NCBI GenBank assembly: GCA_016195025.1
Contig: JACQAL010000002.1
Coordinates: 6,477 to 70,476, forward strand
Origin: Bacteroidota bacterium
GTDB lineage: Bacteria; Bacteroidota; Bacteroidia; Palsa-948
Reading direction: 5' to 3'
DNA: 64,000 nt
Shown here piece by piece: positions 4,032 through 59,003 of this stretch (positions are counted from its first letter, which is position 1; every line of letters begins with the position of its first letter). Position numbers and translations under genes: made by a program. The notes beneath the pieces were generated by a model, which made no database searches, was not told where the DNA came from, and worked only from the letters and a program-made list of their open reading frames with translations.

Positions 4032-4068
4032 CCCCCTTAATGAAGGGGGCAATCCCGCTTTGCGGGAT
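4032..4068 (+). terminator. Two tandem GC-rich hairpins downstream of pdhB
   Basis: 'CCCCCTTaatgAAGGGGG' (4032-4049) and 'ATCCCGCtttGCGGGAT' (4052-4068), 7 nt after the stop. No strong T-tract follows, which is common in Bacteroidota. Confidence 0.45.
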
Positions 4069-4223
4069 GGGGGATGTCTTCTCATATCTTGTTAGCAACT
4101 TTCATCTTCCCTTCGGAAGAGAAAAATTTACATTCGCGTAAAATATTTCAGCACTCGTTCGTTACGTGCTCGTTTCTACAACCCGAAATTTGAACCATTA
4201 ACCCTAAACTTTCCAACTCTTCC

Positions 4224-11125: not shown

Positions 11126-13510
11126 GTGAAAAATATTTTTCTATCAGGCAAGAAAAAAAAGATTTTGTTTGGAATCAGTTTTGTTTTTTTCATTTGGTTT
11201 ATTTTCTGCCTTCCCCGCCATCTTTTCAAAGATCCAACCTGCACTGTTCTTGAAGACAGGAACGGAGTTTTAATTGCTGCGCGCATTGCAGAGGATGAGC
11301 AGTGGAGATTTCCGTACAATGAAAAAGTTCCGGAGAAATTTCGGAAAGCAATCACGGAGTTCGAGGATAAATATTTTGAATATCATCCCGGAATAAATCC
11401 TGTTTCCATTCTTCGCGCGCTGTGGCAGGATGTTACTCACGGAAAAATTATCAGCGGAGGAAGTACGCTCAGCATGCAAGCCATCCGCATTTCAAGAAAA
11501 GGAAAAGGCAGAAACATTTTTGAAAAATTTATTGAAATGATTCTCGCCACGCGCGCGGAAATTTCCTATTCCAAAAAGACAATTCTCGCTTTGTATTCTT
11601 CCAACGCTCCGTTTGGCGGAAATGTGGTTGGATTGGATGCTGCTTCGTGGAGATATTTCGGAAGAAGTCCTGAAAAACTTTCATGGGCGGAAACGGCTAC
11701 ACTTGCAGTTCTTCCGAATGCGCCTTCATTAATTTATCCCGGCAAAAATCACAACAAACTTTTAGCAAAAAGAAATCGTTTACTTGACGCGCTCTGGAAA
11801 GATGGTGAAATAGATTCGCTCACTTGCATTCTTTCCAAATCCGAGCCGCTTCCCGAAAAACCTTTTCCGCTTCCGCAGCTTTCTCCTCACTTGCTCGACC
11901 GCGCTTTCAAAGAAGGAATGAGCGGACAAAAAGTTTTGACTGTGCTTGATGGAACTTTACAGGAACGCGTTGCCGATATAATTGAAAAACATTCTCTCAA
12001 ACTCCGCGGCAACCAAATCTGGAATGCAGCAGCAATTGTGGCTGATGTGGAAACTGGAAATGTGCTGGCTTACGTTGGAAATACTTCTCCCTCTCCTGTG
12101 GGAGAGGGACGAGGTGAGAGCAAAGATGAACACGGAAACTCTGTTGATGTTATAATGTCGCAAAGAAGCACCGGCAGCATTCTCAAACCTTTTCTTTATT
12201 CCGCAATGCTCAGCGAAGGAGAAATTCTTCCGAACACATTGGTGCCTGATATTCCCACGCAGATTGGAGATTTCTCTCCGCAGAATTATTATCTCACGTA
12301 CGATGGCGCAGTTCCTGCAAGAAGAGCGCTTGCGCGTTCGCTCAATGTTCCCGCAGTGAAAATGCTTCAGCAGTTTGGCGTGGACCGGTTTCATTACTTT
12401 CTGAAAAAACTTGGAATCACCACGCTGAATTTTTCTGCCGACCATTACGGGCTTTCATTAATCCTTGGTGGCGCAGAAGCAAAACTCTGGGACTTAGTCG
12501 GAATTTACGCAAGCATGGCGCGCACGCTGAATCATTCCAATCGCGAAGAAAATTTTTCCGAAGATTTATTTCCATTGAATTATTTTTCTTCCACATCATC
12601 CATCATCCATAAACCCTCAACCATTCCACTTGATCCCGCTTCCGTTTATTTAACCTTCGAAGCCATGTCGGAAGTGAACCGCCCGGATATGGATGCGAGT
12701 TGGCAACTCTTTTCTTCTTCTTCAAAGATTGCGTGGAAGACAGGAACAAGTTTTGGCTATCGCGATGGCTGGGCAATAGGGATCACTCCGAAATATGTGG
12801 TAGGAGTTTGGGTCGGCAACGCGAACGGAGAAGGACGACCGAACCTTACAGGAATCGGAACTGCCGCGCCAATTCTTTTTGAAGTTTTTGGTTTGCTGAA
12901 ATCGAATGAATGGTTCAGGATGCCGAAAGATGAGATGAAAGAAATTTTTGTCTGCAAGGAAAGCGGCTACCGCGCAACGGAACTTTGCGAAAATAAAATA
13001 AAAACTTTTGTGCAATCAGCAGGATTGAAAACTCCTCCGTGCCCGTTTCATCGCTTAGTTCATTTAGATGCTTCGGGAAAATTTCGTGTGAACAGCGAGT
13101 GCGAAGATGTTTCAAAGATGATTCACAAATCCTGGTTTGTGCTTCCGCCTTCGATGGAATATTATTACAAAACAAAAAATCCGACTTACAGCGAACTTCC
13201 TCCTTTCCGAAGTGATTGTAAAAGTTCTTCCGCAAGTTCAATGGAATTAATTTATCCGAAGCAGGACACAAAAATTTTTGTTCCGGTTGAACTGGATGAA
13301 TCTTCCGGCAAAACAGTTTTCAAAGTTGCTCATCGTAAACCGGAGACAACTATTTACTGGCATTTGGATGATAATTATATCGGCAGTACAAAGGGAATTC
13401 ACCAACTCGGATTTTCTCCCGAGCCGGGAAGACATAAACTTACTCTTGTGGATGAATTTGGCGAAACAATTTCGCAGCAGTTTGAAATTATCGGTAAGAA
13501 AACTAAGTAG
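11126..13510 (+). CDS. pbpC: Penicillin-binding protein 1C (transglycosylase plus transpeptidase)
   Basis: 794 aa with an N-terminal TM segment. GT51 motifs are present ('RFPYNEKVPEKFRKAITEFEDKYFEYHPGINPVSILRA...GGSTLSMQ'), and there is a transpeptidase 'SxxK'-type region ('STGSILKPFLY'). It is co-located with a2m. Confidence 0.85.
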   Translation: MKNIFLSGKKKKILFGISFVFFIWFIFCLPRHLFKDPTCTVLEDRNGVLIAARIAEDEQWRFPYNEKVPEKFRKAITEFEDKYFEYHPGINPVSILRALWQDVTHGKIISGGSTLSMQAIRISRKGKGRNIFEKFIEMILATRAEISYSKKTILALYSSNAPFGGNVVGLDAASWRYFGRSPEKLSWAETATLAVLPNAPSLIYPGKNHNKLLAKRNRLLDALWKDGEIDSLTCILSKSEPLPEKPFPLPQLSPHLLDRAFKEGMSGQKVLTVLDGTLQERVADIIEKHSLKLRGNQIWNAAAIVADVETGNVLAYVGNTSPSPVGEGRGESKDEHGNSVDVIMSQRSTGSILKPFLYSAMLSEGEILPNTLVPDIPTQIGDFSPQNYYLTYDGAVPARRALARSLNVPAVKMLQQFGVDRFHYFLKKLGITTLNFSADHYGLSLILGGAEAKLWDLVGIYASMARTLNHSNREENFSEDLFPLNYFSSTSSIIHKPSTIPLDPASVYLTFEAMSEVNRPDMDASWQLFSSSSKIAWKTGTSFGYRDGWAIGITPKYVVGVWVGNANGEGRPNLTGIGTAAPILFEVFGLLKSNEWFRMPKDEMKEIFVCKESGYRATELCENKIKTFVQSAGLKTPPCPFHRLVHLDASGKFRVNSECEDVSKMIHKSWFVLPPSMEYYYKTKNPTYSELPPFRSDCKSSSASSMELIYPKQDTKIFVPVELDESSGKTVFKVAHRKPETTIYWHLDDNYIGSTKGIHQLGFSPEPGRHKLTLVDEFGETISQQFEIIGKKTK

Positions 13511-26959: not shown

Positions 26960-27520
26960 CTACTTCACGCGCTCCACATATTCGCTCGTGCGGGTGTCAA
27001 TGCGGATTTTATCGCCTTGGTTTACGAAAAGAGGAACGTTCACTGTTGCGCCTGTTTCAACCGTTGCAGGTTTCATTGCGTTGGTTGCTGTGTTGCCCCT
27101 GACACCGGGTTCGGTGCGAATGATTTCTACTTCAACAAATGTTGGCGGTTCAGCATAAATGGGAGTTTCGCTTTCAATTCCTATTTTCACTTCCATTCCT
27201 TCCTTCAGAAATTTTGTGCCTTCGCCAAAAAGAGTTTTCGGAACATAAATTTGTTCGTAGGTAGCGGGGTCCATACAAACTAAGTTTGCGCCATCTTCAT
27301 AAAGGTATTGCATCATTTTATATTCGAGGCGGGCAACTTCCACTTCTTCGCCTGAGCGGAAACGCTGGTCGAGCATTTTTCCTGTGCGAAGGTTGCGCAT
27401 TCTCACCTGCACGAACGCGCGCTTGTTTCCCGGTGTGCGGTGCTGAAGTTCTGTAATCTGGCAGAGGTCGCCATTGTAGCGTATCACTGAGCCGTTGCCG
27501 ATATCTTGTGTGGTTGACAT
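26960..27520 (-). CDS. efp: Translation elongation factor P
   Basis: 186 aa from the internal M: 'MSTTQDIGNGSVIRYNGDLCQITELQHRTPGNKRAFVQVRMRNLRTGKMLDQRF...'. This matches the EF-P KOW and OB domains. The longer ORF-track N-terminal extension is antisense to the next gene and was rejected. Confidence 0.9.
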   Translation of the reverse strand: MSTTQDIGNGSVIRYNGDLCQITELQHRTPGNKRAFVQVRMRNLRTGKMLDQRFRSGEEVEVARLEYKMMQYLYEDGANLVCMDPATYEQIYVPKTLFGEGTKFLKEGMEVKIGIESETPIYAEPPTFVEVEIIRTEPGVRGNTATNAMKPATVETGATVNVPLFVNQGDKIRIDTRTSEYVERVK

Positions 27521-27604
27521 AGTTTTTTTGTTTTCGTTTAAATGGACGCAAAGATAATTTATTTCATAAGAGCGAGAAAAGGAGTTTTGTACATTCGTTC
27601 TGCT

Positions 27605-28336
27605 ATGAAAATTGCAAAGTGGATAGGCGTAATACTCGGTTGGATTTTGATTCACAACTTCTGGGGAATATTTTTGGGATTTATTATCGGGTCGCTCATT
27701 GACGAAGGACAAGTAAGAGTTTACAGCGGAAGTTCCGGCTCTTCGCCTTTCGGAAACATAAATGATTTCACCACTTCGCTGCTTTATCTTTCGGCTGCGG
27801 TGATGAATGCGGATGGAAGCGCGATGAAGTCGGAACTGGATTTTGTGAGAAGATTTTTCACGCAGCAGTTTGGAGAAGCGAAAGCAAATGCGGATATGCT
27901 TTTGCTCCGCGAAATTCTTCAGAAGGAAATTCCTGTGCAGGAAGTTTGCAGCCGGATAAAAAATTTTATGCCCTTTGCTTCCCGCTTGCAGTTGATTCAT
28001 TATTTATTTGGCTTATCGAATGCGGACGGACATCTTCATCCTGCAGAAATTTCTGTCATAGAGCAAATCGCTTACTATCTCGGAATTAATTCTGCCGACA
28101 TGAATTCGATAAAGGCAATGTACTGGCGTGATGCGGAGAGCGACTATAAAATTCTGGAGATAGAAAAGAATTCTACGGAGGCAGAAATTAAAAAAGCGTA
28201 CCGCAAAATGGCAAACAAGTTTCATCCTGATAAGGTAGCAAGCGAAGGAGAAGAAGTTCAGCGCGCGGCAACGGAAAAGTTTAAGAAGGTGCAGGAAGCG
28301 TATGAGAATATAAAAAAGCAAAGAGGTATAAACTGA
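27605..28336 (+). CDS. djlA: DjlA-like co-chaperone (N-terminal TM, TerB-like domain, C-terminal J-domain)
   Basis: The internal start 'MKIAKWIGVILGWILIHNFWGIFLGFIIGSLID' is a TM segment. 'NADGHLHPAEISVIEQIAYYLGI' is the TerB-like region. The C-terminal 'DYKILEIEKNSTEAEIKKAYRKMANKFHPDK' contains the HPD of a J-domain. Confidence 0.7.
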   Translation: MKIAKWIGVILGWILIHNFWGIFLGFIIGSLIDEGQVRVYSGSSGSSPFGNINDFTTSLLYLSAAVMNADGSAMKSELDFVRRFFTQQFGEAKANADMLLLREILQKEIPVQEVCSRIKNFMPFASRLQLIHYLFGLSNADGHLHPAEISVIEQIAYYLGINSADMNSIKAMYWRDAESDYKILEIEKNSTEAEIKKAYRKMANKFHPDKVASEGEEVQRAATEKFKKVQEAYENIKKQRGIN

Positions 28337-28384: not shown

Positions 28385-29566
28385 ATGCCGGTAGAAATAA
28401 AAGAAGTTAAAACGAAGAGTGACGCAAAGCAGTTTGTAAATCTTCCGTTTGAAATTTACAAAGGCAATGCCTTTTGGGTGCCGCCTTTGAAGGAAGGAGA
28501 AATGAAATCGCTTTTTCCCGAGACAAATCCCGCCTTTGATTTCTGCAAAGCAAAATTCTGGCTTGCGTTTAAGAATAAGAAATGCGTTGGAAGAATTGGC
28601 GCCATCATTAACGAAGCGTACAATAAAAAAACCGGAGAGAAGTTCGCGCGCTTTTCACGGCTGGAATTCTTTGATGACGAACCCCCCCCCCACTCCCCGA
28701 AGGGGGGAACACGGGAGAGTGGATTTCCTGATTTCCCCCTTCGGGGGACAGAGGGGGCTTTGCTTTCCACTGCCGAAAACTGGGCGAAAGAGAATAATTG
28801 CATAGGAATTCACGGGCCGCTTGGCTTTGCCAACCTCGATACTCAGGGTTTGCTGGTGGAAGGTTTTGAGCATTTGCAGGCGGTGGGTTCGGTTTATCAT
28901 CACGATTATTATCACAAGCACTTGGAAAAACTGGGCTATGAAAAAGAAATTGACTGGGTGGAGTTTCGTTTAACGCTGGGGCAGCAGGCGGTGGAAAAAG
29001 CAAACCGCGGTGCCGCGCTCATTCAGAAAAGATACGGCATTGAAGTTCTTCATTTCAAAAAGATGGACGAACTTCTTCCGCATTCCGACACTATTTTTAA
29101 AATACTGAACGATGCTTTCAGCGAACTTCCGTATGTAACGGAGTTTTCTGAAAGGATGATGGAGTTCTACAAAGAAAAATATATCAAACTTCTCAATCCC
29201 GAATTTGTGAAGATGGTAAAACTAAAAGGCGAGTTGGTTGGTTTTGTAATCGGGCTTCCTTCTTTATCCCATGCGCTGCAAAAAGCAAAGGGAAAACTTT
29301 TTCCTTTGGGGTTTCTTCACCTTTTAAAAGCGCGCAAGGGCGGAGAAGTGGTGGAGCAGTTGCTTACCGGAGTGAAAAAAGAAGTGATGTCAACCGGTGC
29401 GGGAGTTATTCTGATGGCTGAACTGCAAAAAGAAATGCTGAAGAAGGGAATGAAATATATTGAGACCACAGGCATTTTTGAAACCAACCAGAATGCAATT
29501 TCCAACTGGAAAAACTACGAGCATATTCAGCATAAAAGAAAGCGGATTTACCGCAAGATGTTTTAG
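28385..29566 (+). CDS. Acyl-CoA N-acyltransferase (GNAT-fold)-like protein of unknown specificity, carrying an in-frame GC-rich insert
   Basis: 393 aa, matching a Bacteroidota family of roughly 370 aa hypothetical GNAT-like proteins. Residues about 98-125 ('DDEPPPHSPKGGTRESGFPDFPLRGTEGA') are encoded by a GC-rich palindromic element. Confidence 0.45.
   Translation: MPVEIKEVKTKSDAKQFVNLPFEIYKGNAFWVPPLKEGEMKSLFPETNPAFDFCKAKFWLAFKNKKCVGRIGAIINEAYNKKTGEKFARFSRLEFFDDEPPPHSPKGGTRESGFPDFPLRGTEGALLSTAENWAKENNCIGIHGPLGFANLDTQGLLVEGFEHLQAVGSVYHHDYYHKHLEKLGYEKEIDWVEFRLTLGQQAVEKANRGAALIQKRYGIEVLHFKKMDELLPHSDTIFKILNDAFSELPYVTEFSERMMEFYKEKYIKLLNPEFVKMVKLKGELVGFVIGLPSLSHALQKAKGKLFPLGFLHLLKARKGGEVVEQLLTGVKKEVMSTGAGVILMAELQKEMLKKGMKYIETTGIFETNQNAISNWKNYEHIQHKRKRIYRKMF
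28682..28758 (+). repeat. GC-rich double-hairpin element sitting in-frame inside the GNAT-like ORF; includes a C10 homopolymer
   Basis: A C x 10 run at 28682-28691 is followed by 'CCCCgaaGGGGGG' (28695-28707) and 'CCCCCttcGGGGG' (28735-28747). The local GC is far above the roughly 40% background. It translates without stops. Confidence 0.6.
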
Positions 29567-34210: not shown

Positions 34211-37135
34211 TTATTTCATCACACTGAATCTTTTCGTCAGCACTGCTTCGCCTGCTTTTAACTGGAAAAAATAATTTCCCGCGCTGAGTTTGGAAGCATC
34301 GAGGGTGAGCGTGTTTCTTCCCTGCTGAATGTTTTCATAGGTCATTACCACTTCGCCCAGTGAATTCATAATGCGGATGGCGGCATGCTCGTAGCCAATC
34401 ACGTTGTAGGCAATGTTCACGTTGGTGGTTGCGGGCGAGGGATAAGCATACGCCCAGAAGTTATCGGTTTCGCCATTTTCAAACACACCGGTGCTGCAGG
34501 AGTTATCCCATTTATCCTGCGCAGCGCAGGCGGTTGCCTGAATGTCGGCAAGGTTGTCTCCGCCAATGAGCGCGAAGGCAACGGTTACGCTGTCGCCCGC
34601 ATTTACGGTGAAGGGCCCGCTGCTCACGCAGTTCATCACATCTCCTCCGGTGGCAGAAAATCCATCGCTGGCGCGCAGAACGGAAAGGGCTTTGTATTTA
34701 TCGGCAGTGGTGAAATTGGTGGTGGGGTCAATGTCTCCATTTCCTCCCGAAACGTTGTCCACCACATGGCAGTTGGGAGGTGCGGAATTAGTTAAGACCT
34801 TCGTAGCCGCATATAAATTATTTCCCACCCAGTAAACGTATCCCATTTTGTTGGGCACATCCCAACTTGCTTTGTCCTGCCCCGAATTGGCATTGGGCAC
34901 ATCCCAGTCAGACATGATTCCGGCATACAAGCCGCTGAGCGTGCTTGCGCCCGTATTGGTGATTACATATTTCACAATCACAAATTTCCTGTAAGGCGCG
35001 GTTTGCCATGCATACGCATTGTGGTGAACGCTCACGGGAATGGGACCGCTGGTGGTGGCAGGCGCATCGTTGAAACTTCCATCCACATCAAAATCGGAAA
35101 CCGTTGCGGGAAGAACTTGTTTCACGCGAACGGTAGAACCAAAATCGGTGTTGCCCGTGCTTGCATCGCGGAACATATCAGAAACCTTTGTACTTGAAGC
35201 GCCAATCATCAAACTGGATTCATAGAGAAGCGCCTGGGGCGATGGGTTTTCGTATTCAACGCCAAGCCCGTTCACCTGCCCGTCATTGTTATAGCCAATT
35301 CTTCCTTTGCTGGTAATGGTGGTGTGCAAATCATTAATGGTAATATTAATGTAATCGGGGTTCACCAGAATATCAAAATACGTATCGCCCGTGAACGTTC
35401 CATCCGTAATATGAATTTTGAAACGCACGGTTTGATTAATGGGAGCGCTGGCAGAAAGCACCGCTGTAAAAGGCGAAGCATTGTTGTTGGTTGTTGCCAG
35501 CGTGGCAAGCGCGCCAATGGTGAAACTTCCGTTTGTAATAGTAGGATTGGGTCCCGCAGAAACCGAATAGGTGCTCAGCGTTGCCGTTGCGCTGGAAGAA
35601 GAAGGGTCAAGATAATTGGTGAATATTCCGCTGATGTCAATGGTTTCACCCACATCAAAAATGTTATCGTTATTGTCAGTAACTGTAACCGGATTTACCA
35701 AAATGGATTTTGCCGCCTGCGTGAGCGCGTTGTTGATGTCAATTCTTCCCTTGCCAAGTTTTCCTAAAGGATATTGCGTGGCGCTTGGCATAGGGTCGCA
35801 GGTTTGTTTCATCTGCTCTCCAATCTGGAAAGCATTGGTATAATTTTTCACCGACTGAATCAATGCCGCACCGCCTGCCGAAACCGGGCAAGCCATGGAA
35901 GTTCCGCTGGCTGATTGGTATCCTGCACCGCTCGTGGTTGAATAAACATTATTTCCGGGAGCGCAGTAGTCCACATCCAGCCCGTAAGAAGAAAAACCCG
36001 CCATGTTATCTGTGCTGGTGGAAGCCGACACGCGGTATATATTATTATAGGAAGAAGGATAGGTTTGGTCTTCCACTCCGTTATTGCCGGCAGAAGCCAT
36101 CACCAGAATATTATTGTTGATGGCGGCATAGTCAATAATGTTTTGCCCGTAAGAGCCGCCACCGCTTCCGCCCCATGAGTTGCTGATCATCTGAACAATG
36201 TTTCCATGCTTGGCAGAAAAATCGGCAAGCCATTGAATTCCCTGGTAGGCAGCCACCAGTGCACCGCTTGCATCGGCAATTTTGCACATGATAAATTTCG
36301 TATTGAAGCCGGGGCTTGAAACTCCCGTGCTGTTATTTGTAACCGCACAGGCATCTCCGCTTGTCATCACTCCGTGATTGTTTCCCTGCCAGGTGGGGTC
36401 GTTGTCATTCATTCCCACATCCCAGCCGTTGTAATCGTCTATATAACCGTCTGCATCATTATCACTGCCATCAACCGGGTCAGCGGTGTTGTGGTAAACA
36501 TTTGCGGCAAGGTCGGGGTGAGTGAGTTCTGTGCCGGTGTCGGTGATTCCCACTATAAAACTTGCGCTTCCGTTGGTGGTGCACCAGGCGGTTCCTTTCA
36601 CATCAATGCTGCCGGTAACATTTCCTTGGATATGATATTGGCTTCCTAAAGATGGGTCATTCGGAGTGCATACGGCATGAAGTTTGGGAACATACCAGGG
36701 CTCCACGTATTCAAAATAGCCGAGCGAAAGCATTCCGTTAATTACTTTTTCAAGATTCAAACCTGAGGTGAACTTGAAAGAATAAATAAGAGAGAGGTCA
36801 ACTAATTTTTGTCCGAGCGCATTTCTTTCCTGCGCGGGCGCTTCCACGTGAGGATAAATTTTTGCCACTTTAGTTGCGCCCACCGAATTAAGATAATCCT
36901 GAAGCGGAAGAATATTATCAACTGAATTTATTTTGCAGTTCTGCCGGTACTGGGGTTTTACTTTGAAGATAACTGTGGTTGGCAGATAATCTCCTTCGTG
37001 AACATTTGCAGCCAGTTTGAAATGCATGGGCGCATGGTTGCCCGGAATAATTACTTCGCATTTGTTGCCTGCGAATGTAAGCGCTGTGCCAGAGAGAAAA
37101 AGCGCAGCAGTAAACAGAGATGTAAATTTTTTCAT
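34211..37135 (-). CDS. Subtilisin-like serine protease (S8 family) with a T9SS type-A C-terminal sorting domain
   Basis: 974 aa with a signal peptide. The catalytic triad context is present: D ('VGITDTGTELTHPDL'), H ('NNHGVMTSG') and S ('GTSMACPVSAGGAALI'). The C-terminus 'YPSPATTNVNIAYNV...LSAGNYFFQLKAGEAVLTKRFSVMK' is a Por-CTD. Confidence 0.9.
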   Translation of the reverse strand: MKKFTSLFTAALFLSGTALTFAGNKCEVIIPGNHAPMHFKLAANVHEGDYLPTTVIFKVKPQYRQNCKINSVDNILPLQDYLNSVGATKVAKIYPHVEAPAQERNALGQKLVDLSLIYSFKFTSGLNLEKVINGMLSLGYFEYVEPWYVPKLHAVCTPNDPSLGSQYHIQGNVTGSIDVKGTAWCTTNGSASFIVGITDTGTELTHPDLAANVYHNTADPVDGSDNDADGYIDDYNGWDVGMNDNDPTWQGNNHGVMTSGDACAVTNNSTGVSSPGFNTKFIMCKIADASGALVAAYQGIQWLADFSAKHGNIVQMISNSWGGSGGGSYGQNIIDYAAINNNILVMASAGNNGVEDQTYPSSYNNIYRVSASTSTDNMAGFSSYGLDVDYCAPGNNVYSTTSGAGYQSASGTSMACPVSAGGAALIQSVKNYTNAFQIGEQMKQTCDPMPSATQYPLGKLGKGRIDINNALTQAAKSILVNPVTVTDNNDNIFDVGETIDISGIFTNYLDPSSSSATATLSTYSVSAGPNPTITNGSFTIGALATLATTNNNASPFTAVLSASAPINQTVRFKIHITDGTFTGDTYFDILVNPDYINITINDLHTTITSKGRIGYNNDGQVNGLGVEYENPSPQALLYESSLMIGASSTKVSDMFRDASTGNTDFGSTVRVKQVLPATVSDFDVDGSFNDAPATTSGPIPVSVHHNAYAWQTAPYRKFVIVKYVITNTGASTLSGLYAGIMSDWDVPNANSGQDKASWDVPNKMGYVYWVGNNLYAATKVLTNSAPPNCHVVDNVSGGNGDIDPTTNFTTADKYKALSVLRASDGFSATGGDVMNCVSSGPFTVNAGDSVTVAFALIGGDNLADIQATACAAQDKWDNSCSTGVFENGETDNFWAYAYPSPATTNVNIAYNVIGYEHAAIRIMNSLGEVVMTYENIQQGRNTLTLDASKLSAGNYFFQLKAGEAVLTKRFSVMK

Positions 37136-37230
37136 AGTGAAAATAGTTAGTTTGGTTTTAAAAGGGATGTAAAGGTAGAAATCTCCTAATCAAAACCAAA
37201 ATTTAGGTAAACTTTTTTTTACACTTAGAA

Positions 37231-37280
37231 CTCACCCCTAACCCCTCTCTTTCTGAAAGAGAGGGGAATTTAAGGGGAGA
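37231..37280. repeat. Intergenic GC-rich palindromic hairpin element, in a terminator position for the 37282-37731 gene
   Basis: 'CCCCTCTCTttctgaaAGAGAGGGG' has a 9 bp stem (37242-37266). It is flanked by 'cacccctaa...ttaaggggag'. The 'CTCTCCCC/GGGGAGAG' stem is shared with the holA insert. Confidence 0.55.
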
Positions 37281-37281
37281 G

Positions 37282-37731
37282 TTATTTGTACTCAGGAAAA
37301 TCTTTTAGAAATAAATGCTTTCCCTGTTCATAGTTCATTTCGCAGCAATAATGTTTCAAGCCGTTTGTTACCGCCAAAAATTTTGTTCTGAGTTTATTCG
37401 ATATATTGTAAACGGCAACCTGATTAAAAGTTTCCTGAGAAATTTTTACATCGGGTTTTTTGCATTCCACAATCATCCACACATTTCCTTTCCGGTTGTG
37501 AATTTTTATGTCGCTTCGCTTTTGAAGTTTGTTGTACTTCAATCCTGTTTCAACGGCAATAAGCGAAGCAGGATATTTTTTTTCTTCAATTAAATACTGA
37601 ATAAAATTCTGGCGCACCCATTCTTCGGGTGTGAGAGCGACAAACTTTTTGCGAATCGCATCAAAGATTTGATTTCCTTTTTCACCTTGTCGAATTCGAA
37701 AAGAATATTCGGGAAGATTTAATTTTAACAT
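37282..37731 (-). CDS. Stand-alone protein resembling the type I restriction enzyme HsdR N-terminal domain
   Basis: 149 aa. 'EEWVRQNFIQYLIEEKKYPASLIAVETGLKYNKLQKRSDIKIHNRKGNVWMIVECKKP' fits the HSDR_N fold pattern (E...R.DI...P...IE.K), which is common as a solo roughly 150 aa protein in Bacteroidota. Confidence 0.6.
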   Translation of the reverse strand: MLKLNLPEYSFRIRQGEKGNQIFDAIRKKFVALTPEEWVRQNFIQYLIEEKKYPASLIAVETGLKYNKLQKRSDIKIHNRKGNVWMIVECKKPDVKISQETFNQVAVYNISNKLRTKFLAVTNGLKHYCCEMNYEQGKHLFLKDFPEYK

Positions 37732-37829
37732 CTACTAAATACTAATTTTTACTAATGTACTAATTTACGAATCAGCGCACGGCTGTTTTGTCTAATTCGT
37801 AAATTCGTATTAATTAGTATTTAGTAGAT
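37730..37829. promoter_or_regulatory. Divergent promoter region with an 18 bp perfect inverted repeat, each arm directly abutting a start codon
   Basis: 'ATCTACTAAATACTAATT' at 37730-37747 is the reverse complement of 37812-37829 'AATTAGTATTTAGTAGAT'. The ATG of the 37282-37731 gene (minus) and the ATG of holA (37830) follow the arms immediately. The inner sequence 'tactaatttacgaat'/'attcgtaaattcgta' extends the imperfect palindrome. Confidence 0.5.
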
Positions 37830-38927
37830 ATGGATTTTGACAAAATAATATCCGACCTCAAGAACAAAGTTTACCATCCCGTTTATTTTTTAATGGGCGA
37901 GGAGCCGTTCTTTATTGATGAAGTTTCAAATTACATAGAGAAAAATATTCTGGATGATTCCGAAAAAGAATTCAACCAGACAGTTTTATACGGAGGCGAG
38001 ACAAACATTCTGCAGGTCATCGGCGAAGCCAAGAGTTATCCCATGATGAGCAATTACCGCGTGGTGATTATCAAGGAAGCGCAGAACATGAAAGACCTTG
38101 TGCCGAAGGAAAAATCAGACCCCTCTCCATCTCTCCCCAAAGGGGAGAGGGTTGAGCGCGCAAACTCCTCCCCTTCGGGGAGGTCGGGTGGGGTTGTTCA
38201 TCCGCTAGAAAATTATCTCGACAATCCCCAAAAGACAACCATTCTTGTTTTCTGCCATAAGTACAAAACCATTGACATGCGCACAGGGTTCGCAAAAAAT
38301 CTTTCCAAGCGCGCAGTGGTTTTGAAATCGGATACGCTTTACGATTACAAAGTGCCGAAGTGGATTGAAGAATTTATAGCGGATAAAAAATATTCCATTG
38401 AGCCGCGTGCGAGCCAACTGCTCACGGAATTTCTTGGAAATGATTTGAGCAAGATTGCCAACGAACTTGAAAAACTTTTCTTAAACATTCCTGAGAAAAG
38501 CAAAATTACTTCCGACCACATTCAAAAATACATCGGCATCAGCAAGGAGTACAACAATTTTGAATTGCAGGATGCCATTGGGAAAAAAGATTCGCTGAAA
38601 GCAAACCGCATCATCAATTATTTTTCTGCCAATACAAAGGATAATCCCATGGTGGTAACGGTTGCTTCGCTGGCAGGGTATTTCAGCAAGATGCTGCTGT
38701 ATCATATGGTAAAAGGAAAACCGCAGAATGAAATTGCAGCAACTCTCAAAGTGCCTCCGTTTTTTGTGAAGGATTATGCATCGGCTTCAAATAATTATCC
38801 TCCCGGAAAAATTTTCAGCGCCATTTCTCTCCTCCGCGAATACGATATGAAATCAAAGGGCTATGAAAATTCAAACATAGATGAAGGAGAACTGATGAAA
38901 GAAATGGTGTATAAAATAATGCATTGA
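37830..38927 (+). CDS. holA: DNA polymerase III delta subunit, carrying an in-frame GC-rich insert
   Basis: 365 aa. 'VYHPVYFLMGEEPFFIDEVSNYIEKNIL...VLYGGETNILQVIGEAKSYPMMSNYRVVIIKEAQNMKD' is the delta-subunit N-terminal clamp-loader fold. Residues about 95-125 ('SDPSPSLPKGERVERANSSPSGRSGGVVHP') are the inserted element. Confidence 0.8.
   Translation: MDFDKIISDLKNKVYHPVYFLMGEEPFFIDEVSNYIEKNILDDSEKEFNQTVLYGGETNILQVIGEAKSYPMMSNYRVVIIKEAQNMKDLVPKEKSDPSPSLPKGERVERANSSPSGRSGGVVHPLENYLDNPQKTTILVFCHKYKTIDMRTGFAKNLSKRAVVLKSDTLYDYKVPKWIEEFIADKKYSIEPRASQLLTEFLGNDLSKIANELEKLFLNIPEKSKITSDHIQKYIGISKEYNNFELQDAIGKKDSLKANRIINYFSANTKDNPMVVTVASLAGYFSKMLLYHMVKGKPQNEIAATLKVPPFFVKDYASASNNYPPGKIFSAISLLREYDMKSKGYENSNIDEGELMKEMVYKIMH
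38120..38183 (+). repeat. GC-rich double-hairpin element sitting in-frame inside holA
   Basis: 'CTCTCCCCaaaGGGGAGAG' (38131-38149) and 'CCTCCCCttcGGGGAGG' (38167-38183), with 'cccctctcc' also at 38120-38128. There is no stop codon. Confidence 0.6.
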
Positions 38928-39194
38928 AAATTTTTTATTCGAAAAAATTATACGCTTTTTCCAGATACTTTGTTTTCAGCGCAGCAATGCGGTTGCTGCC
39001 GAAAATACTTGACGGACTCGCAAAAATTCCCTGCAGAAGCGGAAAAACCCCGCACGGAATTGCTGAATAAACAGACGGGATGCCTGAATGAACGCGCGGG
39101 ACTTCAAAAAGAAGTTCAAGTTATTGATGAATCCCGCACCTGCATTTAAAATGAACACGCGGGAGGGCAGAAAAAATTTGCGTTATGTATGCGG

Positions 39195-39340
39195 AAACAT
39201 TCCCTTATGCAGCAGGAAGTTTTAGTAGTTGCACAGCAAGTTTTAGTTGAGCGCGCCAAACATTGCCTTATGCAGCAGGAAGTTTTAGCAGTTATACAGC
39301 AAGTTTTATTTCAACCTGCCGAACATTGCTTGCTGCGCGC
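39195..39340. repeat. Tandem direct repeat of about 63 nt (about 2.5 copies) with an internal periodicity of about 21 nt, inside a 530 bp intergenic region
   Basis: Unit 1 is 'AAACATTCCCTTATGCAGCAGGAAGTTTTAGTAGTTGCACAGCAAGTTTTAGTTGAGCGCGCC'. Unit 2 is 'AAACATTGCCTTATGCAGCAGGAAGTTTTAGCAGTTATACAGCAAGTTTTATTTCAACCTGCCG'. Unit 3 is partial. The sub-motif 'GCAGCA(G)GAAGTTTTAG' recurs four times. Confidence 0.8.
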
Positions 39341-39456
39341 CAAAGGAAAATTTTTTTCTGAAAATGTCAACTTCAGGCAAAAGGGTGCTTCGCCCTTCGG
39401 AATAATTTTTCTTTCGCTATTCCCATATCTCAATTATTTTTGCAGAAAAAAACAGG

Positions 39457-39858
39457 ATGAATTATTTCCTCGTCAAATCCGAACCCGAAACGTATTCATG
39501 GGAACAATTTGCCAAAGACGGCAAAACCATGTGGGAAGGCGTGCGCAACTTTGCCGCGAGAAAAAATTTACGCTCTATGAAAAAAGATGATTTGGTTTTG
39601 TTCTATCACAGCGGAGAAGATAAATGCGTGAAAGGAATTGCAAAAGTTACCAGAGAATTTTACCAAGACCCCACCACAAAAGAAGATTGGTCGGTGGTTG
39701 ACCTTGCTTCTGAAAAACCGCTGAAGAAACCCGTTACGCTGGCGCAAATAAAAGCAGAAAAAAAATTGCAGAACATTTATCTGGTGAGACAAGGAAGATT
39801 ATCCGTTATGCCGCTTGGCAAAGAAGAGTTTGAACTTATCGTTCGCATGGGAAGTTGA
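39457..39858 (+). CDS. EVE-domain (PUA-like) protein
   Basis: 133 aa. 'MNYFLVKSEPETYSWEQFAKDGKTMWEGVRNFAARKNLRSMKKDDLVLFYHSGEDKCVKGIAKVTREFYQDP' is the canonical EVE/DUF55 signature. Confidence 0.85.
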   Translation: MNYFLVKSEPETYSWEQFAKDGKTMWEGVRNFAARKNLRSMKKDDLVLFYHSGEDKCVKGIAKVTREFYQDPTTKEDWSVVDLASEKPLKKPVTLAQIKAEKKLQNIYLVRQGRLSVMPLGKEEFELIVRMGS

Positions 39859-57185: not shown

Positions 57186-59003
57186 TTAATTTTCAAGCAT
57201 TAATTGCCGGATGTATTTCACCGGAGCGCTGCCATAACTGAGAAACTTCTCATTGAACTCTTTCAGGTTGAATTTCTCTCCAAGTTTTTTCTTCATCTCT
57301 TCCCTTAGTTCATAAATTTCGGTGAAGCCGGTGAAGTAAGAATCCAACTGAACTTGCGTGAGGGAAACCCGCTTCCATTTATTTTCGGCTTCCTGTTTTT
57401 GCTGGAAAGCATCTTCCACCAGAAATTTGATTGCATCTTCTTTGCTCATTCCGCGAACATGCACGCTGTAATCCAAAATGGTGTTGCATACAGAGCGCAA
57501 ATGCCATTTATAATACATCAGCCACATTTCAAGTGAATCGGGTCCTGCGCCAAAACCGTTTTCAAGCATGAGGCGTTCTGAATAAACCGCCCATCCTTCA
57601 ATCATTGCTCCGTTGCCGAATAAACTTTTCACCCTACTGGGCGATTGATTGCTGTAAATCAATTGCGCGTAATGCCCCGGAATGGCTTCGTGAATGGAAA
57701 GTATTTGCAGGATGTAATGATTGTATTCACGCAGATAACTTTCGGCTTCTTCTTTTGAATAATGAGCCAGCGAACCAACGTTGTAATAAGAATTTCCCTC
57801 TTTGTCATACGGACCGGGTGAAGACATGGAAGCGCCCGCAACTCCTGCCATGTAAGCAGGTTCTTTACGAACCACCAATGGTTTTGCAGGATCCATGTAT
57901 AATAGATTTTTGTCGCTCACGAATTTTGTAAGCATGGGAATTTGTTTTTCTATTTCGGTTTGAAAATCTCCGGGCTTCACATGCTTTTTAGAAATTTCGT
58001 CTATGAGCATTTTAACTTCCGATTTTGTGAAACCACTCAGTCGGATATTGGGAAAATAGTTGTGAAAAATCTTTTTAGTAATGCCCAGCATTTCTTTTTG
58101 AATCTCGTCCTTGCGCTGAACGGCTTTATTGTAAATTTCTTCGGCAGTAAAATGCGATTGGATATCGTACATAAATTTCTTCTCGTATAAATCTTTTCCT
58201 ATTCTGAAAGAACGCGCTTCAAATCCCCCTGCTTCGCTTTCCCCCTTTGAAAAGGGGGACTTAGGGGGATTCAACTTCGAGCGCAAATCTTTCAGCCAGG
58301 AAACATAATCGTCAATGACTTTCACAAAATATTTAATCTGCATTTCGATTATCTGAATTTCGTGTTCATCCATTTTGCATTTCGCCAGCGAATCCATCAT
58401 CATTCCCGTAAAAACTTCTTCTCCTCCTTTGTTTTGCTGAATCGCCAAATCGGTATGTTCAATGGTTGGATTCTTAATCATCTTTTTCGCATTTTCATAA
58501 TATGCTTTAATAGGTTTCATGCGCTGAGAAAGCGCGCGGAGTTTTTCTTCGTTCGGTTCATTTTTATTCTGAAGAATATCTGCAAAGGTTGAACTCACAT
58601 TATACGAAGCAGGATTCCATTCATATTCACGGAATTCATTTACATTAAAAATAATTCCGTTCAGCATGTTATCGAGAATGTGAAAATCTGTTTTGTTGGA
58701 AGAAGAAAGTTTTGTGATGTCCATTTTTTTCAGCGCTTCCAGCTTTTCATTTGCAAAAGCAATTTCTTTTTGATGAAACGCCTCATCGGTCACAACGAGA
58801 ACACTGTCATATTTATGATATCCTTGTGATGAAGCCCATCCGGGGTAAAGTTTCCATAAATCCTCTATGAAGTTGGCACTGAATTTTGAAAAAGAAGAAT
58901 CTGCATCTGGCGGGTTGATGAGTTGCCGGGTTGCAGAGGGGTTATTTTCACAGGAGAAAAATAGCAAGCCCGTGATGAAGAACAGAAAAATTATTTTTTT
59001 CAT
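57186..59003 (-). CDS. DUF885-family lipoprotein (putative HExxxGH metallopeptidase-like), carrying an in-frame GC-rich insert
   Basis: 605 aa with a lipoprotein signal 'LLFFSCENN'. It carries the 'SIHEAIPGHYAQ' motif characteristic of DUF885. The inserted element encodes 'KLNPPKSPFSKGESEAGGFE'. Confidence 0.65.
   Translation of the reverse strand: MKKIIFLFFITGLLFFSCENNPSATRQLINPPDADSSFSKFSANFIEDLWKLYPGWASSQGYHKYDSVLVVTDEAFHQKEIAFANEKLEALKKMDITKLSSSNKTDFHILDNMLNGIIFNVNEFREYEWNPASYNVSSTFADILQNKNEPNEEKLRALSQRMKPIKAYYENAKKMIKNPTIEHTDLAIQQNKGGEEVFTGMMMDSLAKCKMDEHEIQIIEMQIKYFVKVIDDYVSWLKDLRSKLNPPKSPFSKGESEAGGFEARSFRIGKDLYEKKFMYDIQSHFTAEEIYNKAVQRKDEIQKEMLGITKKIFHNYFPNIRLSGFTKSEVKMLIDEISKKHVKPGDFQTEIEKQIPMLTKFVSDKNLLYMDPAKPLVVRKEPAYMAGVAGASMSSPGPYDKEGNSYYNVGSLAHYSKEEAESYLREYNHYILQILSIHEAIPGHYAQLIYSNQSPSRVKSLFGNGAMIEGWAVYSERLMLENGFGAGPDSLEMWLMYYKWHLRSVCNTILDYSVHVRGMSKEDAIKFLVEDAFQQKQEAENKWKRVSLTQVQLDSYFTGFTEIYELREEMKKKLGEKFNLKEFNEKFLSYGSAPVKYIRQLMLEN
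58222..58271. repeat. Nested GC-rich palindromic element sitting in-frame inside the DUF885 ORF
   Basis: The outer arms are 'AATCCCCCT' (58222-58230) and 'AGGGGGATT' (58263-58271). The inner hairpin is 'CCCCCTTTgaAAAGGGGG' (58241-58258). Confidence 0.6.

What the first reader, a model, noticed from the sequence alone, without database searches (positions are those of the whole stretch)
38120..38183. In-frame GC-rich double hairpin inside holA
'CTCTCCCCaaaGGGGAGAG' and 'CCTCCCCttcGGGGAGG' encode about 28 extra residues (SDPSPSLPKGERVERANSSPSGRSGGVV) between the AAA+-like N-domain motif 'IIKEAQNMKDL' and 'LENYLDNPQKTTILVF'. An essential replication gene tolerating such an insert argues for a neutral surface-loop location. 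It shares the CTCTCCCC/GGGGAGAG stem with the intergenic element at 37242-37266.
Basis: seen in the sequence. Interest (0 to 1): 0.55.

Follow-up and report, generated by a model that had tools for sequence, protein, structure and literature searches.

The report
BoxC-like triplex repeat inside holA
The GC-rich double hairpin in the clamp-loader gene holA is one copy of a dispersed DNA repeat of the E. coli BoxC / "intrastrand triplex motif" type, which in this Bacteroidota lineage repeatedly sits in-frame in tolerant loops of housekeeping proteins, where it is read through as a floppy peptide.

Summary
Window 38120-38193 holds two perfect hairpins (8 bp and 7 bp) inside an intact holA ORF. 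They add about 19-26 residues to a loop that AlphaFold2 predicts as disordered.

The closest HolA homolog (86% identity) lacks the insert, and so do distant Bacteroidota.

Each hairpin is flanked by a box that is the mirror image of its purine arm, with A to T swaps allowed. That is the code of a class II purine-motif intrastrand triplex, as in E. coli BoxC/PIT/TMECO repeats. The holA element is an inverted dimer of two such units.

The same family sits in-frame in three more genes of this window (PBP1C-like, GNAT/YghO-like, DUF885) and in two intergenic spots. In metagenomes it sits in-frame in genes whose products read as LeuRS, MetRS, MetH and others.

Related HolA genes carry related copies in the same loop in scattered lineages. 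This points to recurrent gain. The junctions show no target-site duplication and about 17-19 nt of target replaced.

How the element spreads is unknown, and triplex formation was not tested here. I rate it a new variant of known kinds: BoxC-type repeats, so far described as intergenic, behaving like Rickettsia RPEs or intragenic REPs.

The parts
37830..38927 (+). holA (DNA polymerase III delta subunit) ORF, 365 aa, intact across the element
   Evidence: ORF list. Pfam PF06144 and PF21694. Best structural match is B. subtilis delta 3zh9, followed by E. coli clamp-loader chains including delta.
38120..38149 (-). Unit 1. Read on the minus strand it is a class II intrastrand triplex motif: CTCTCCCC-TTT-GGGGAGAG-ATG-GAGAGGGG. 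On the plus strand it reads as C-box 38120-38128 followed by hairpin 38131-38149.
   Evidence: Formal motif finder: 8-nt stems, no mismatch. Perfect hairpin.
38150..38166 (.). Spacer GGTTGAGCGCGCAAACT between the two inverted units
   Evidence: Sequence. Nearly the same spacer (GGTTGGGCGCGCAAAAA / ggttgcgcgcgaaagt) occurs in the holA copy of L082 and in copies in other genes, L199 and L189.
38167..38193 (+). Unit 2, a class II intrastrand triplex motif on the plus strand: CCTCCCC-TTC-GGGGAGG-TCG-GGTGGGG
   Evidence: Formal motif finder: 7-nt stems, no mismatch, with a T opposite the A-T pair.
38112..38195 (+). Codons for residues 95-122 (KSDPSPSLPKGERVERANSSPSGRSGGV), predicted disordered
   Evidence: pLDDT below 50 for residues 95-121. 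Only 3 counterpart residues in B. subtilis delta. The element is stop-free in 5 of 6 frames.
37228..37284 (.). Intergenic copy of the same family. It is 'palindromic', with class II motifs on both strands and stems of 11-12 nt.
   Evidence: It resembles the second in-frame holA insert of L083 (CTCACCCCCAACCCCTCTCCttcaGGAGAGGGGcgAAGGGGAGAGG), visible in the L083 gene sequence printed.
28682..28758 (+). Double-hairpin copy in-frame in the GNAT/YghO-like ORF 28385-29566 (PPPHSPKGGTRESGFPDFPLRGTEGA)
   Evidence: Sequence. Absent from the 89-90% identical homologs P0122 and P0124 and from most of the 54 aligned. Junction.
58223..58271 (+). Copy in-frame in the DUF885 ORF 57186-59003 (minus strand), encoding NPPKSPFSKGESEAGGF
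   Evidence: Class II motif with 9-nt stems. Absent from nearly all of 29 homologs.
12088..12120 (+). Degenerate BoxC-like copy in-frame in the PBP1C-like ORF 11126-13510 (SPSPVGEGRGE)
   Evidence: Nearly identical to the holA inserts of L085 and L084. The loop is about 8-10 residues longer than in 19 representatives. It fails the strict motif finder.
4032..4075 (+). Intergenic pair of C-run/G-run hairpins just after the stop codon of ORF 3048-4025. Family membership is looser.

Best explanation
Window 38120-38193 is an inverted dimer of two units of a dispersed DNA repeat of the BoxC / PIT / TMECO type (intrastrand triplex motif). Each unit has three parts:
- a C-rich arm;
- a short loop (RAA or TTC) followed by the complementary G-rich arm;
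- after 2-4 nt, a G/T/A box that is the mirror image of the G-rich arm.

A single DNA strand with this layout could fold twice into a purine-motif triple helix using G.G-C, A.A-T and T.A-T triplets.

The dimer entered the Lys/Glu-rich, disordered loop of HolA domain I after the window's lineage split from its nearest sampled relatives. It replaced about 19 nt of the old loop.

The element is made of C-runs and G-runs, so it is stop-free in 5 of 6 frames. It is simply translated, here as a Pro/Ser/Gly-rich 26-27-residue disordered peptide, and the essential protein tolerates it.

It has no holA-specific function. The same family occupies loops of other genes and intergenic DNA in this genome and its relatives.

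Shown here: the anatomy, the mirror-box rule, the family's dispersal, the presence/absence pattern and the loop location.

Inferred: neutrality, recurrent independent insertion, and mobility of the element.

Not shown: triplex formation in vivo, and the enzyme or repair pathway that copies the element.
For: (1) Anatomy. Both units pass a formal class II triplex-motif test with no mismatch. The window has 5 such motifs, against 0 in 100 shuffles.

(2) The mirror-box rule is general.
- Of 132 non-ascertained, de-duplicated C-arm hairpins, 103 have a full-length mirror box on one side.
- Among 47 with asymmetric arms, the mirror match beats the direct-repeat match 35 times and loses twice.
- Box and arm co-vary between copies: GGGGAGG with GGGTGGGG, GGGAGGGG with GGGGTGGG, GGGAAGGG with GGGATGGG, GGGGGAGA with AGAGGGGG.

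(3) Same kind as BoxC. Holder et al. 2015 (PMC4666352) define TMECO/BoxC as CCCTCNCCC-N3-6-GGGNGAGGG-N3-GGGNGAGGG. An E. coli copy between deoB and deoD, CCCCCTCTCCCTGTGGGAGAGGGCCGGGGTGAGGGCA, is nearly identical to the in-frame holA insert of relative L084, TCCCCCTCTCCTGTGGGAGAGGGGACAGGGGTGAGGGCG.

(4) It is an insertion.
- P0002 (86% identity) and P0007 have a short K/E-rich loop like the outgroups.
- B. subtilis delta has 3 residues where the window has 26.
- The nucleotide junction is shown.

(5) Dispersed family.
- In-frame copies sit in the GNAT, DUF885 and PBP1C-like genes of the window and are absent from close homologs.
- L083 has 6 hairpins in 6.3 kb, including two sites in holA and one in MurB.
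- Density is 23 per 159 kb in close relatives, 2 per 501 kb in distant Bacteroidota, and 0.28 expected in window shuffles.
- Near-identical 80-nt dimers lie in unrelated ORFs: L199, L189, L172, L158.
- 34 of 87 metagenomic sites lie inside long ORFs. I read the flanking peptides as LeuRS, MetRS, MetH, OGDH E1 and HsdR; those names come from my own recognition of motifs, not from a family search.

(6) All three reading frames are used, so the conserved thing is DNA, not a peptide.

(7) Permissive site. pLDDT is below 50 for residues 95-121, and 18 of 68 homologs have extended loops at this position.
Against: - No target-site duplication and no clean empty site were found. The insertion replaces about 17-19 nt in both junctions examined, which does not look like classical transposition.
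- No transposase is encoded in the 64-kb window. Holder et al. found none near E. coli BoxC either. Mobility is therefore inferred only from distribution.
- The window has no second near-identical copy of the holA dimer.
- The holA copies of the window and of L082 are more alike (86% over 73 nt) than the surrounding gene (74%). Selection on the DNA structure at this site could also produce that.
- Independent gain rests on an unbootstrapped NJ tree of one protein.
- Neutrality of the peptide is assumed, not tested.
- Triplex formation is predicted from the sequence code only.
Confidence: 0.8

Rival explanations
1. There was a single ancient insertion in the HolA loop of the clade's ancestor. 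It was inherited vertically, diverged into single- and double-hairpin forms, and was lost many times, rather than being gained repeatedly.
For: Related elements sit within a few codons of the same position in window, L082, L083, L084, L085, L087 and L002. The GNAT gene shows the same pattern: the window and the more distant P0146 share an insert at one site. Palindromes and triplex motifs are deletion-prone; Holder 2015 links TMECO to local instability.
Against: Insert-free alleles (P0002, P0007 and many others) keep a K/E-rich loop like the outgroups (EDKEEKKHPLE versus SEEKKHPLE and similar). The window has lost that stretch, so insert-free alleles cannot be deletion products of a window-like allele. 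Carriers are scattered over the loop-masked tree among non-carriers. The window and L082 elements are more alike than their genes.
Confidence: 0.12
2. The double hairpin is a selected cis-regulatory structure for holA. It might act as an mRNA structure that pauses ribosomes, promotes frameshifting or stabilises the transcript, or as a DNA structure that modulates transcription.
For: As RNA the region folds far better than shuffles (-51 kcal/mol, z = -3.4). Stems are kept by changes on both sides between holA copies, for example CCTCCCC/GGGGAGG versus CCCCCC/GGGGGG. L082 has an in-frame A AAA AAC heptamer upstream of the hairpin.
Against: The element is absent from the closest relatives and from most Bacteroidota. 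The same elements occur in unrelated genes and in intergenic DNA. There is no conserved slippery site; the window has GAA AAA TCA. Rfam gives only chance-level hits. The DNA fold z-score is only -1.7. The mirror box is a DNA-level feature, because a purine-motif triplex does not form in RNA (Holder 2015).
Confidence: 0.04
3. The segment arose locally in each gene by slippage or template switching in a low-complexity purine-rich loop. On this view it is convergent palindrome formation, not copying of a pre-existing element.
For: The ancestral loop DNA is a purine tract (AGACAAAGAAGAAAAAAAA). There is no TSD. The insert replaces target bases, which fits replication or repair errors.
Against: Long shared strings outside the pairing constraint (GGTTGNGCGCGNAAA spacer, conserved AAA/TTC loops, boxes) recur between holA and unrelated genes in different assemblies. 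Composition jumps from 40% to 65% G+C. A purine tract cannot generate C-runs by slippage.
Confidence: 0.03
4. It is an assembly or binning artefact, such as a chimeric join inside holA.
For: The source is a metagenome-assembled genome (names).
Against: The reading frame is preserved. The identical protein is held in NCBI and in the Logan assemblies. Homologous inserts appear in many independent assemblies from JGI, ENA, NCBI and Logan.
Confidence: 0.01

Closest known systems
BoxC / PIT (potential intrastrand triplex) elements / TMECO of E. coli and other Proteobacteria and Cyanobacteria (Hoyne & Maher 2000/2002 as cited in Holder et al. 2015, NAR, PMC4666352)
   Same: Same three-block architecture: pyrimidine arm, loop, purine arm, short loop, mirror G/T/A block (class II purine motif). 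Stem lengths are 7-12 nt. The second loops (TTA, CCG, TTG) resemble those of TMECO types A and B. The family is multi-copy, G/C-rich in an A/T-richer genome, and includes 'palindromic' versions. One relative's holA insert is almost the E. coli BoxC sequence.
   Different: E. coli TMECO is reported as always intergenic, and the 3610 TMECO copies were found in proteobacterial genomes. Here the host is Bacteroidota, and many copies are inside protein-coding genes in-frame. The window's holA units use asymmetric stems (CTCTCCCC, CCTCCCC) instead of the self-mirror CCCTCNCCC. The two units are joined as an inverted dimer.
Rickettsia palindromic elements (RPE; Ogata et al. 2000, as summarised in PMC10969869 and PMC3733652)
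   Same: Small palindromic repeats inserted in-frame into many unrelated housekeeping genes, translated, and thought to lie in positions compatible with the protein fold.
   Different: RPE-1 is about 150 bp and each RPE encodes a conserved peptide, which implies one reading frame. Some RPEs carry a CGTC tag. Here the units are about 30 nt (dimer about 75 nt), all three frames are used, there is no CGTC or GTAG tag in the holA copy (sequence), and there is a mirror-repeat box.
Intragenic REPs, GTAG/CGTC super-families (Di Nocera et al. 2013, PMC3733652), and REP doublets (REPINs; the latter from my own knowledge)
   Same: Short G/C-rich palindromes, often as inverted dimers encoding 20-30 residues. 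They are sometimes inside ORFs and notably in replication and repair genes. They are argued to be neutral in linkers or loops.
   Different: The defining GTAG or CGTC end tag is absent from the holA copy. No RAYT transposase was seen in the window. The mirror box is not a REP feature.

Membership tests
BoxC / PIT / TMECO-type class II intrastrand triplex motif (ITxF criteria of Holder et al. 2015) | Order on one strand: pyrimidine-rich block, loop, complementary purine-rich block, loop, reverse-Hoogsteen block | tested here: met
   38167-38193 (+) CCTCCCC/TTC/GGGGAGG/TCG/GGTGGGG. 38120-38149 (-) CTCTCCCC/TTT/GGGGAGAG/ATG/GAGAGGGG.
BoxC / PIT / TMECO-type class II intrastrand triplex motif (ITxF criteria of Holder et al. 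2015) | Stems of 6-15 nt made only of C-G.G, T-A.A or T-A.T triplets (at most one mismatch if longer than 7 nt) and loops of 1-6 nt | tested here: met
   Stems of 7 and 8 nt with 0 mismatches; loops of 3 and 3 nt. Criteria quoted.
BoxC / PIT / TMECO-type class II intrastrand triplex motif (ITxF criteria of Holder et al. 2015) | Match to the TMECO consensus CCCTCNCCC-N3-6-GGGNGAGGG-N3-GGGNGAGGG | tested here: not met
   The window's holA units have different, asymmetric stems. Relatives' holA inserts (L084, L085) and window 12088-12120 are close to the consensus. So the holA copy is the same kind of motif but not the TMECO sequence family in the strict sense.
BoxC / PIT / TMECO-type class II intrastrand triplex motif (ITxF criteria of Holder et al. 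2015) | Over-represented, multi-copy in the genome | tested here: met
   5 motifs in 64 kb against 0 in 100 shuffles. 225 de-duplicated motifs in the fetched loci. The whole genome was not available.
BoxC / PIT / TMECO-type class II intrastrand triplex motif (ITxF criteria of Holder et al. 2015) | Intergenic location (as reported for E. coli K-12) | tested here: not met
   The holA, GNAT, DUF885 and PBP1C-like copies are inside ORFs. 109 of 225 motifs lie in long ORFs.
BoxC / PIT / TMECO-type class II intrastrand triplex motif (ITxF criteria of Holder et al. 2015) | The single strand actually folds into a triplex (CD, NMR, DMS footprint) | not testable with these tools
   ViennaRNA models only Watson-Crick and wobble pairs.
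Rickettsia palindromic elements (RPE) | In-frame insertion in functional protein-coding genes | tested here: met
Rickettsia palindromic elements (RPE) | Each element encodes a conserved peptide (implying one reading frame); sequence homology to RPE families | tested here: not met
   All three frames are used and the peptides differ: PSPSLPKGER, LSPxGRxGEG, PLPFGERxRGV. The length is about 75 nt, against about 150 bp for RPEs.
REP / REPIN (GTAG or CGTC super-families) | GTAG or CGTC tetranucleotide at one end of the palindrome | tested here: not met
   Neither tetranucleotide occurs in 38116-38197 on either strand (sequence). Some metagenomic copies are preceded by (G)TAG or AAG, which I did not follow up.
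REP / REPIN (GTAG or CGTC super-families) | Association with a RAYT (IS200/IS605-like Y1) transposase gene | tested here: inconclusive
   No transposase among 46 ORFs of the window. The window is only a small part of the genome.
MITE | Terminal inverted repeats plus target-site duplication | tested here: not met
   No duplication at the two junctions compared with empty alleles; about 17-19 nt of target are replaced.

The most novel reading that the evidence does not exclude
BoxC-type intrastrand-triplex repeats have had no known function or means of spread since the 1990s. They may be an actively copying DNA element in Bacteroidota and other phyla, spreading through a non-transposase, replication- or repair-coupled route. 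The signature would be no target duplication, replacement of about 12-19 nt of target, and recurrent hits in the same loops. Their stop-free C-run/G-run composition would let them colonise essential proteins, adding disordered Pro/Ser/Gly segments. If so, conserved genes with and without the insert give exact insertion junctions from which the mechanism can be deduced.
Probability: 0.3. Interest if true: 0.75.

Novelty: new variant of a known kind. Interest (0 to 1): 0.55.

Why it matters
BoxC/PIT/TMECO repeats are abundant in bacteria, fold into triplex DNA in vitro and are linked to local genome instability. Nobody knows how they spread or what they do, and in E. coli they were described as strictly intergenic.

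Here the same architecture, in one relative almost the same sequence, is found translated inside HolA and other housekeeping genes. I read the metagenomic hosts as including LeuRS, MetRS and MetH. Close relatives provide empty sites.

This gives three things:
1. A natural set of insertion junctions for working out the copying mechanism.
2. A second, independent example, besides Rickettsia RPEs and intragenic REPs, of selfish or structure-driven DNA remodelling protein loops.
3. A practical warning for annotation: Pro/Ser/Gly-rich 'PSPxLPxGE' or 'LSPxGRxGEG' stretches in Bacteroidota proteins are repeat-derived, not functional motifs.

For HolA itself, it maps a loop that tolerates at least 26 extra residues.

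Tried and rejected
- Rfam search of 36500-39500: only chance-level miRNA hits.
- Programmed frameshift idea: a slippery heptamer exists in L082 only, not in the window. Rejected.
- Sense-strand orientation bias: the scanned variant shows 31 sense to 3 antisense in ORFs. Other family members show 29 to 33. It is therefore not a family property, and I do not build on it.
- Target-site duplication: none at the holA and GNAT junctions.
- Transposase in the window: none among 46 ORFs.
- Pair counting on the MAFFT alignment A3: abandoned, because the hairpins were misaligned by one column between copies. I listed stems per copy instead.
- A covariance model was not built. The family is too heterogeneous, and a purpose-written motif finder answered the question.
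- My first semi-global DNA alignments were badly gapped. Only the identity figures from the full-gene alignments in that call are used. The junctions were redone.
- The genome-contig scan did not return the window's own genome. Only 6 relatives at 66-73% identity were found, so sister-genome comparison relied on metagenomic contigs.
Full report
OBSERVATION

The plus strand reads, from 38120:
- CCCCTCTCC, then AT
- CTCTCCCC AAA GGGGAGAG (hairpin 1)
- GGTTGAGCGCGCAAACT (spacer)
- CCTCCCC TTC GGGGAGG (hairpin 2)
- TC, then GGGTGGGG

The two hairpins (38131-38149 with 8 bp; 38167-38183 with 7 bp) are perfect. Together the halves form a 25+25-nt imperfect palindrome.

The segment lies in an intact 365-aa ORF, 37830-38927. 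That ORF matches Pfam DNA_pol3_delta and DNA_pol3_delta_C. Its predicted fold is closest to B. subtilis delta 3zh9, followed by E. coli clamp-loader chains including delta.

The element is 65% G+C in a gene that is otherwise 40% G+C. It has no stop codon in 5 of 6 frames. Chance does not explain it:
- The first hairpin pattern is expected 0.02 times in the window.
- C-arm hairpins occur 7 times, against 0.28 in shuffles.

IS IT AN INSERT, AND WHERE IN THE PROTEIN?

I aligned the window's HolA with 67 homologs (68 sequences in all). The stretch between KEAQNMKDL and (H)PLExYLxNPQ varies in every one. It is usually 31-40 residues counted between those anchors and rich in Lys, Glu and Asp.

The window has 53 residues there. 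Its nearest homolog, P0002 (86% identity), has 34 (ILPRGKESEDKEEKKHPLE), and P0007 also has 34.

B. subtilis delta has 3 residues opposite window residues 97-122. AlphaFold2 on the 68-sequence alignment gives pLDDT below 50 for residues 95-121. These lie between strand 77-82 and helix 125-131. The rest of the model is confident, with a mean pLDDT of 81.

The 74 more distant Bacteroidota holA loci have matches of about 990-1005 nt, against 1095 nt here. They have almost no such hairpins: 2 in 501 kb.

The condition that would have refuted it is not met.

WHAT THE ELEMENT IS

Other C-run/G-run hairpins exist in the window.
- 28682-28758 is a second double hairpin, in-frame in a GNAT/YghO-like gene.
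- 58223-58271 is in-frame in a DUF885 gene.
- 12088-12120 is in-frame in a PBP1C-like gene.
- 37228-37284 and 4032-4075 are intergenic.

Homolog alignments show that these are also insertions.
- The GNAT insert (21 residues) is missing from the 89-90% identical P0122 and P0124 and from most of the 54 sequences aligned. Other homologs carry similar inserts at three other positions.
- The DUF885 insert is missing from nearly all of 29 homologs.
- The PBP1C-like loop is 8-10 residues longer than in 19 representatives.

The units share a rule that I had not expected. Next to each hairpin, on one side, lies a box that is the mirror image of the adjacent arm. It is neither the complement of that arm nor a direct repeat of it.

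On the G-rich strand the order is: pyrimidine arm, loop, purine arm, 2-4 nt, mirror of the purine arm, in which an A may be replaced by T. That is exactly the code of a purine-motif (reverse-Hoogsteen) intrastrand triple helix: G.G-C, A.A-T, T.A-T.

I tested the rule on 132 hairpins that had not been selected for it.
- 103 have a full-length mirror box on one side.
- The box lies on the 5' side in 62 and on the 3' side in 53. It lies on both sides in only 4 and on neither in 13.
- Among 47 hairpins with asymmetric arms, the mirror match beats the direct-repeat match 35 times, loses twice and ties 10 times.

Hairpins with the opposite polarity (G-rich arm first) are almost absent: 1 against 7 in the window, and 0 against 16 in close relatives.

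A finder written to the published ITxF criteria reports five class II motifs with stems of at least 7 nt in the window, and none in 100 shuffles. Both holA units are among them with no mismatch. The other three are the intergenic element on both strands and the DUF885 copy.

The literature names this architecture. Holder et al. 2015 (PMC4666352) describe BoxC, also called PIT elements or TMECO, as CCCTCNCCC-N3-6-GGGNGAGGG-N3-GGGNGAGGG. According to that paper:
- It is a class II purine-motif intrastrand triplex that folds in vitro.
- It occurs 3610 times in 262 proteobacterial genomes.
- It is 'always located intergenically' in E. coli K-12.
- It is not associated with mobility genes.
- It is linked to local rearrangement.
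- Purine-motif triplexes do not form in RNA.

An E. coli copy between deoB and deoD, CCCCCTCTCCCTGTGGGAGAGGGCCGGGGTGAGGGCA, is nearly the same string as the in-frame holA insert of relative L084, TCCCCCTCTCCTGTGGGAGAGGGGACAGGGGTGAGGGCG.

The window's holA copy uses different, asymmetric stems but obeys the same rule. It consists of two units in inverted orientation, one motif on each strand.

DISTRIBUTION IN HolA

Nucleotide sequences of relatives show related elements within a few codons of the same place.
- Double units occur in L082 (P0021), L083 (P0008), L087 (P0013) and L002 (P0017).
- Single BoxC-like units occur in L084 (P0009) and L085 (P0006).

Stems differ between copies, with both sides changed, while the loops (AAA or GAA, and TTC) are kept.

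On a neighbour-joining tree built with the loop masked, the window groups with the insert-free P0002 and P0007. The double-unit carriers are scattered among non-carriers.

Insert-free alleles retain the K/E-rich loop seen in the outgroups, and the window has lost that stretch. At the nucleotide level the element replaces AGACAAAGAAGAAAAAAAA of the P0002-type allele. Insert-free alleles therefore cannot derive from a window-like allele. The simplest reading is several independent gains. I hold this as an inference, because it rests on a one-gene tree without support values.

The window and L082 copies are 86% identical over 73 nt, whereas the genes are 74% identical. Flanks next to the element are not unusually similar, so this is not a transferred holA segment.

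The GNAT junction is the same kind: about 17 nt are replaced and there is no target-site duplication.

DISTRIBUTION ELSEWHERE

The contigs range from 33% to 73% G+C.

Of 87 non-redundant sites, 34 lie inside long stop-free spans. From the flanking peptides I recognise the host proteins as leucyl- and methionyl-tRNA synthetases, methionine synthase, 2-oxoglutarate dehydrogenase E1, a type I restriction HsdR, a Toprim (primase-like) protein and urocanase. These names are my own reading of motifs and were not run against family libraries.

Complete dimers nearly identical to the holA copy, including parts not specified in the search pattern, lie in unrelated ORFs: L199, L189, L172, L158 and L144. 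An example is ...GGGGAGAGggttgcgcgcgaaagtcctccccttcggggaggatttaggtggggt.

All three reading frames are used, so no particular peptide is being conserved.

In the fetched loci, 109 of 225 de-duplicated class II motifs are inside long ORFs. Some genes carry several.

HOW IT MOST LIKELY WORKS

Shown:
- The element is a copy of a dispersed DNA repeat with a triplex-type architecture.
- It is in-frame and sits in a disordered loop.
- It is absent from the nearest relatives.

Inferred:
- It was copied into holA by whatever process spreads BoxC-type repeats.
- It survives because its C-run/G-run make-up rarely creates stop codons and because this loop is the one place in HolA that tolerates extra residues.
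- It does nothing specific for HolA.

The recurrence in one loop can be explained by a high insertion rate filtered by selection, by a target preference, or by both. I cannot separate these.

The junctions (no duplication, a short replacement) argue against cut-and-paste transposition. They suggest a replication- or repair-coupled route, but that is speculation. No transposase is encoded among 46 ORFs of the window.

RIVALS

- Single ancient insertion with many losses: 0.12.
- Selected cis-regulatory structure for holA: 0.04. The RNA fold is strong. However, the element is missing in sisters, is present in unrelated genes, and its box feature is DNA-specific.
- Local de novo origin: 0.03.
- Assembly artefact: 0.01.

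COMPARISON WITH KNOWN SYSTEMS AND NOVELTY

The element works like two known things at once.
- By architecture it is a BoxC/PIT/TMECO-type motif. It meets the structural criteria but not the strict TMECO consensus, and it does not meet the intergenic habit.
- By behaviour it resembles Rickettsia RPEs and the intragenic REPs of Di Nocera et al. 2013 (PMC3733652). Those authors already noted REPs in replication and repair genes, and dimers encoding 20-30 residues.
- It lacks the GTAG or CGTC tags, the RPE size, and the conserved peptide of RPEs.

In the papers I could search, I found no description of BoxC-type triplex motifs translated inside genes, or of such a family in Bacteroidota. The library is limited, so this is absence of evidence.

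I therefore rate it a new variant of a known kind, of moderate interest.

Noticed in passing
window 37730-37829: The whole divergent intergenic region between the HSDR_N_2-domain gene (37282-37731, minus strand) and holA is an A/T-rich palindrome. Its arms are 36 nt, 86% complementary and 28 nt apart. It reaches from the start codon of one gene to the start codon of the other.
   Followed up: no
window 39019-39320: The 530-nt gap between holA and the EVE-domain gene holds direct repeats with a 63-nt period. For example, 39195-39257 and 39258-39320 are 86% identical, and 39087 and 39150 are 77% identical. Relatives have different DNA here, including an integrase/methylase island in L084 and a PKD-domain gene in L087.
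   Followed up: no
metagenome loci L088-L207: The exact variant CCCCTCTCCNNCTCTCCCCNNNGGGGAGAG, when inside ORFs, has its G-box strand as the coding strand in 31 of 34 sites. Other family members show no such bias, at 29 against 33. This is unexplained.
   Followed up: partly
L083 (JGI 3300031576, Ga0247727_10035114) 500-590, 860-910, 4085-4125, 5865-5965: One 6.3-kb contig carries the repeat at two sites in holA, in MurB, at the end of the EI24 gene and in the next spacer. All copies use the same contig-specific unit, GCCCATCCCCnnCCCTTCCCnAAGGGAAGGG, in both orientations.
   Followed up: partly
L210 (E. coli E2863, between deoB and deoD) 303-337: An E. coli BoxC copy is about 90% identical to the in-frame holA insert of a Bacteroidota relative. 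4250 of 5426 complete E. coli genomes have matches to that insert, with a median of 2 places each, under no annotated feature in the 10 rows listed.
   Followed up: partly
L092, L159, L111 and similar loci: Single large genes in metagenomic contigs carry three to five in-frame triplex-motif units each. From the peptides I read them as leucyl-tRNA synthetase and a Toprim/primase-like gene; some of the contigs are from human gut.
   Followed up: no
L081 and L086 versus window 34211-37731: The two insert-free nearest relatives have MgtE upstream of holA. The window and the more distant relatives have an S8 peptidase plus an HSDR_N_2 gene there. Downstream synteny (EVE, MurB, EI24, menaquinone gene, TPR/PD40, S16) is shared.
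   Followed up: no
metagenome loci, 5' flank of the unit: Many copies are preceded by AAG or (G)TAG and by purine-rich strings such as GTGAAAAG or GGTAAAAAGG, sometimes tandemly repeated, for example in L103, L169 and L188. This is a possible larger composite repeat or a target preference.
   Followed up: no
window 26960-28000 (minus strand): The listed 346-aa ORF has EF-P domains only in residues 163-344. The long N-terminal extension is probably an artefact of taking the first start codon.
   Followed up: no
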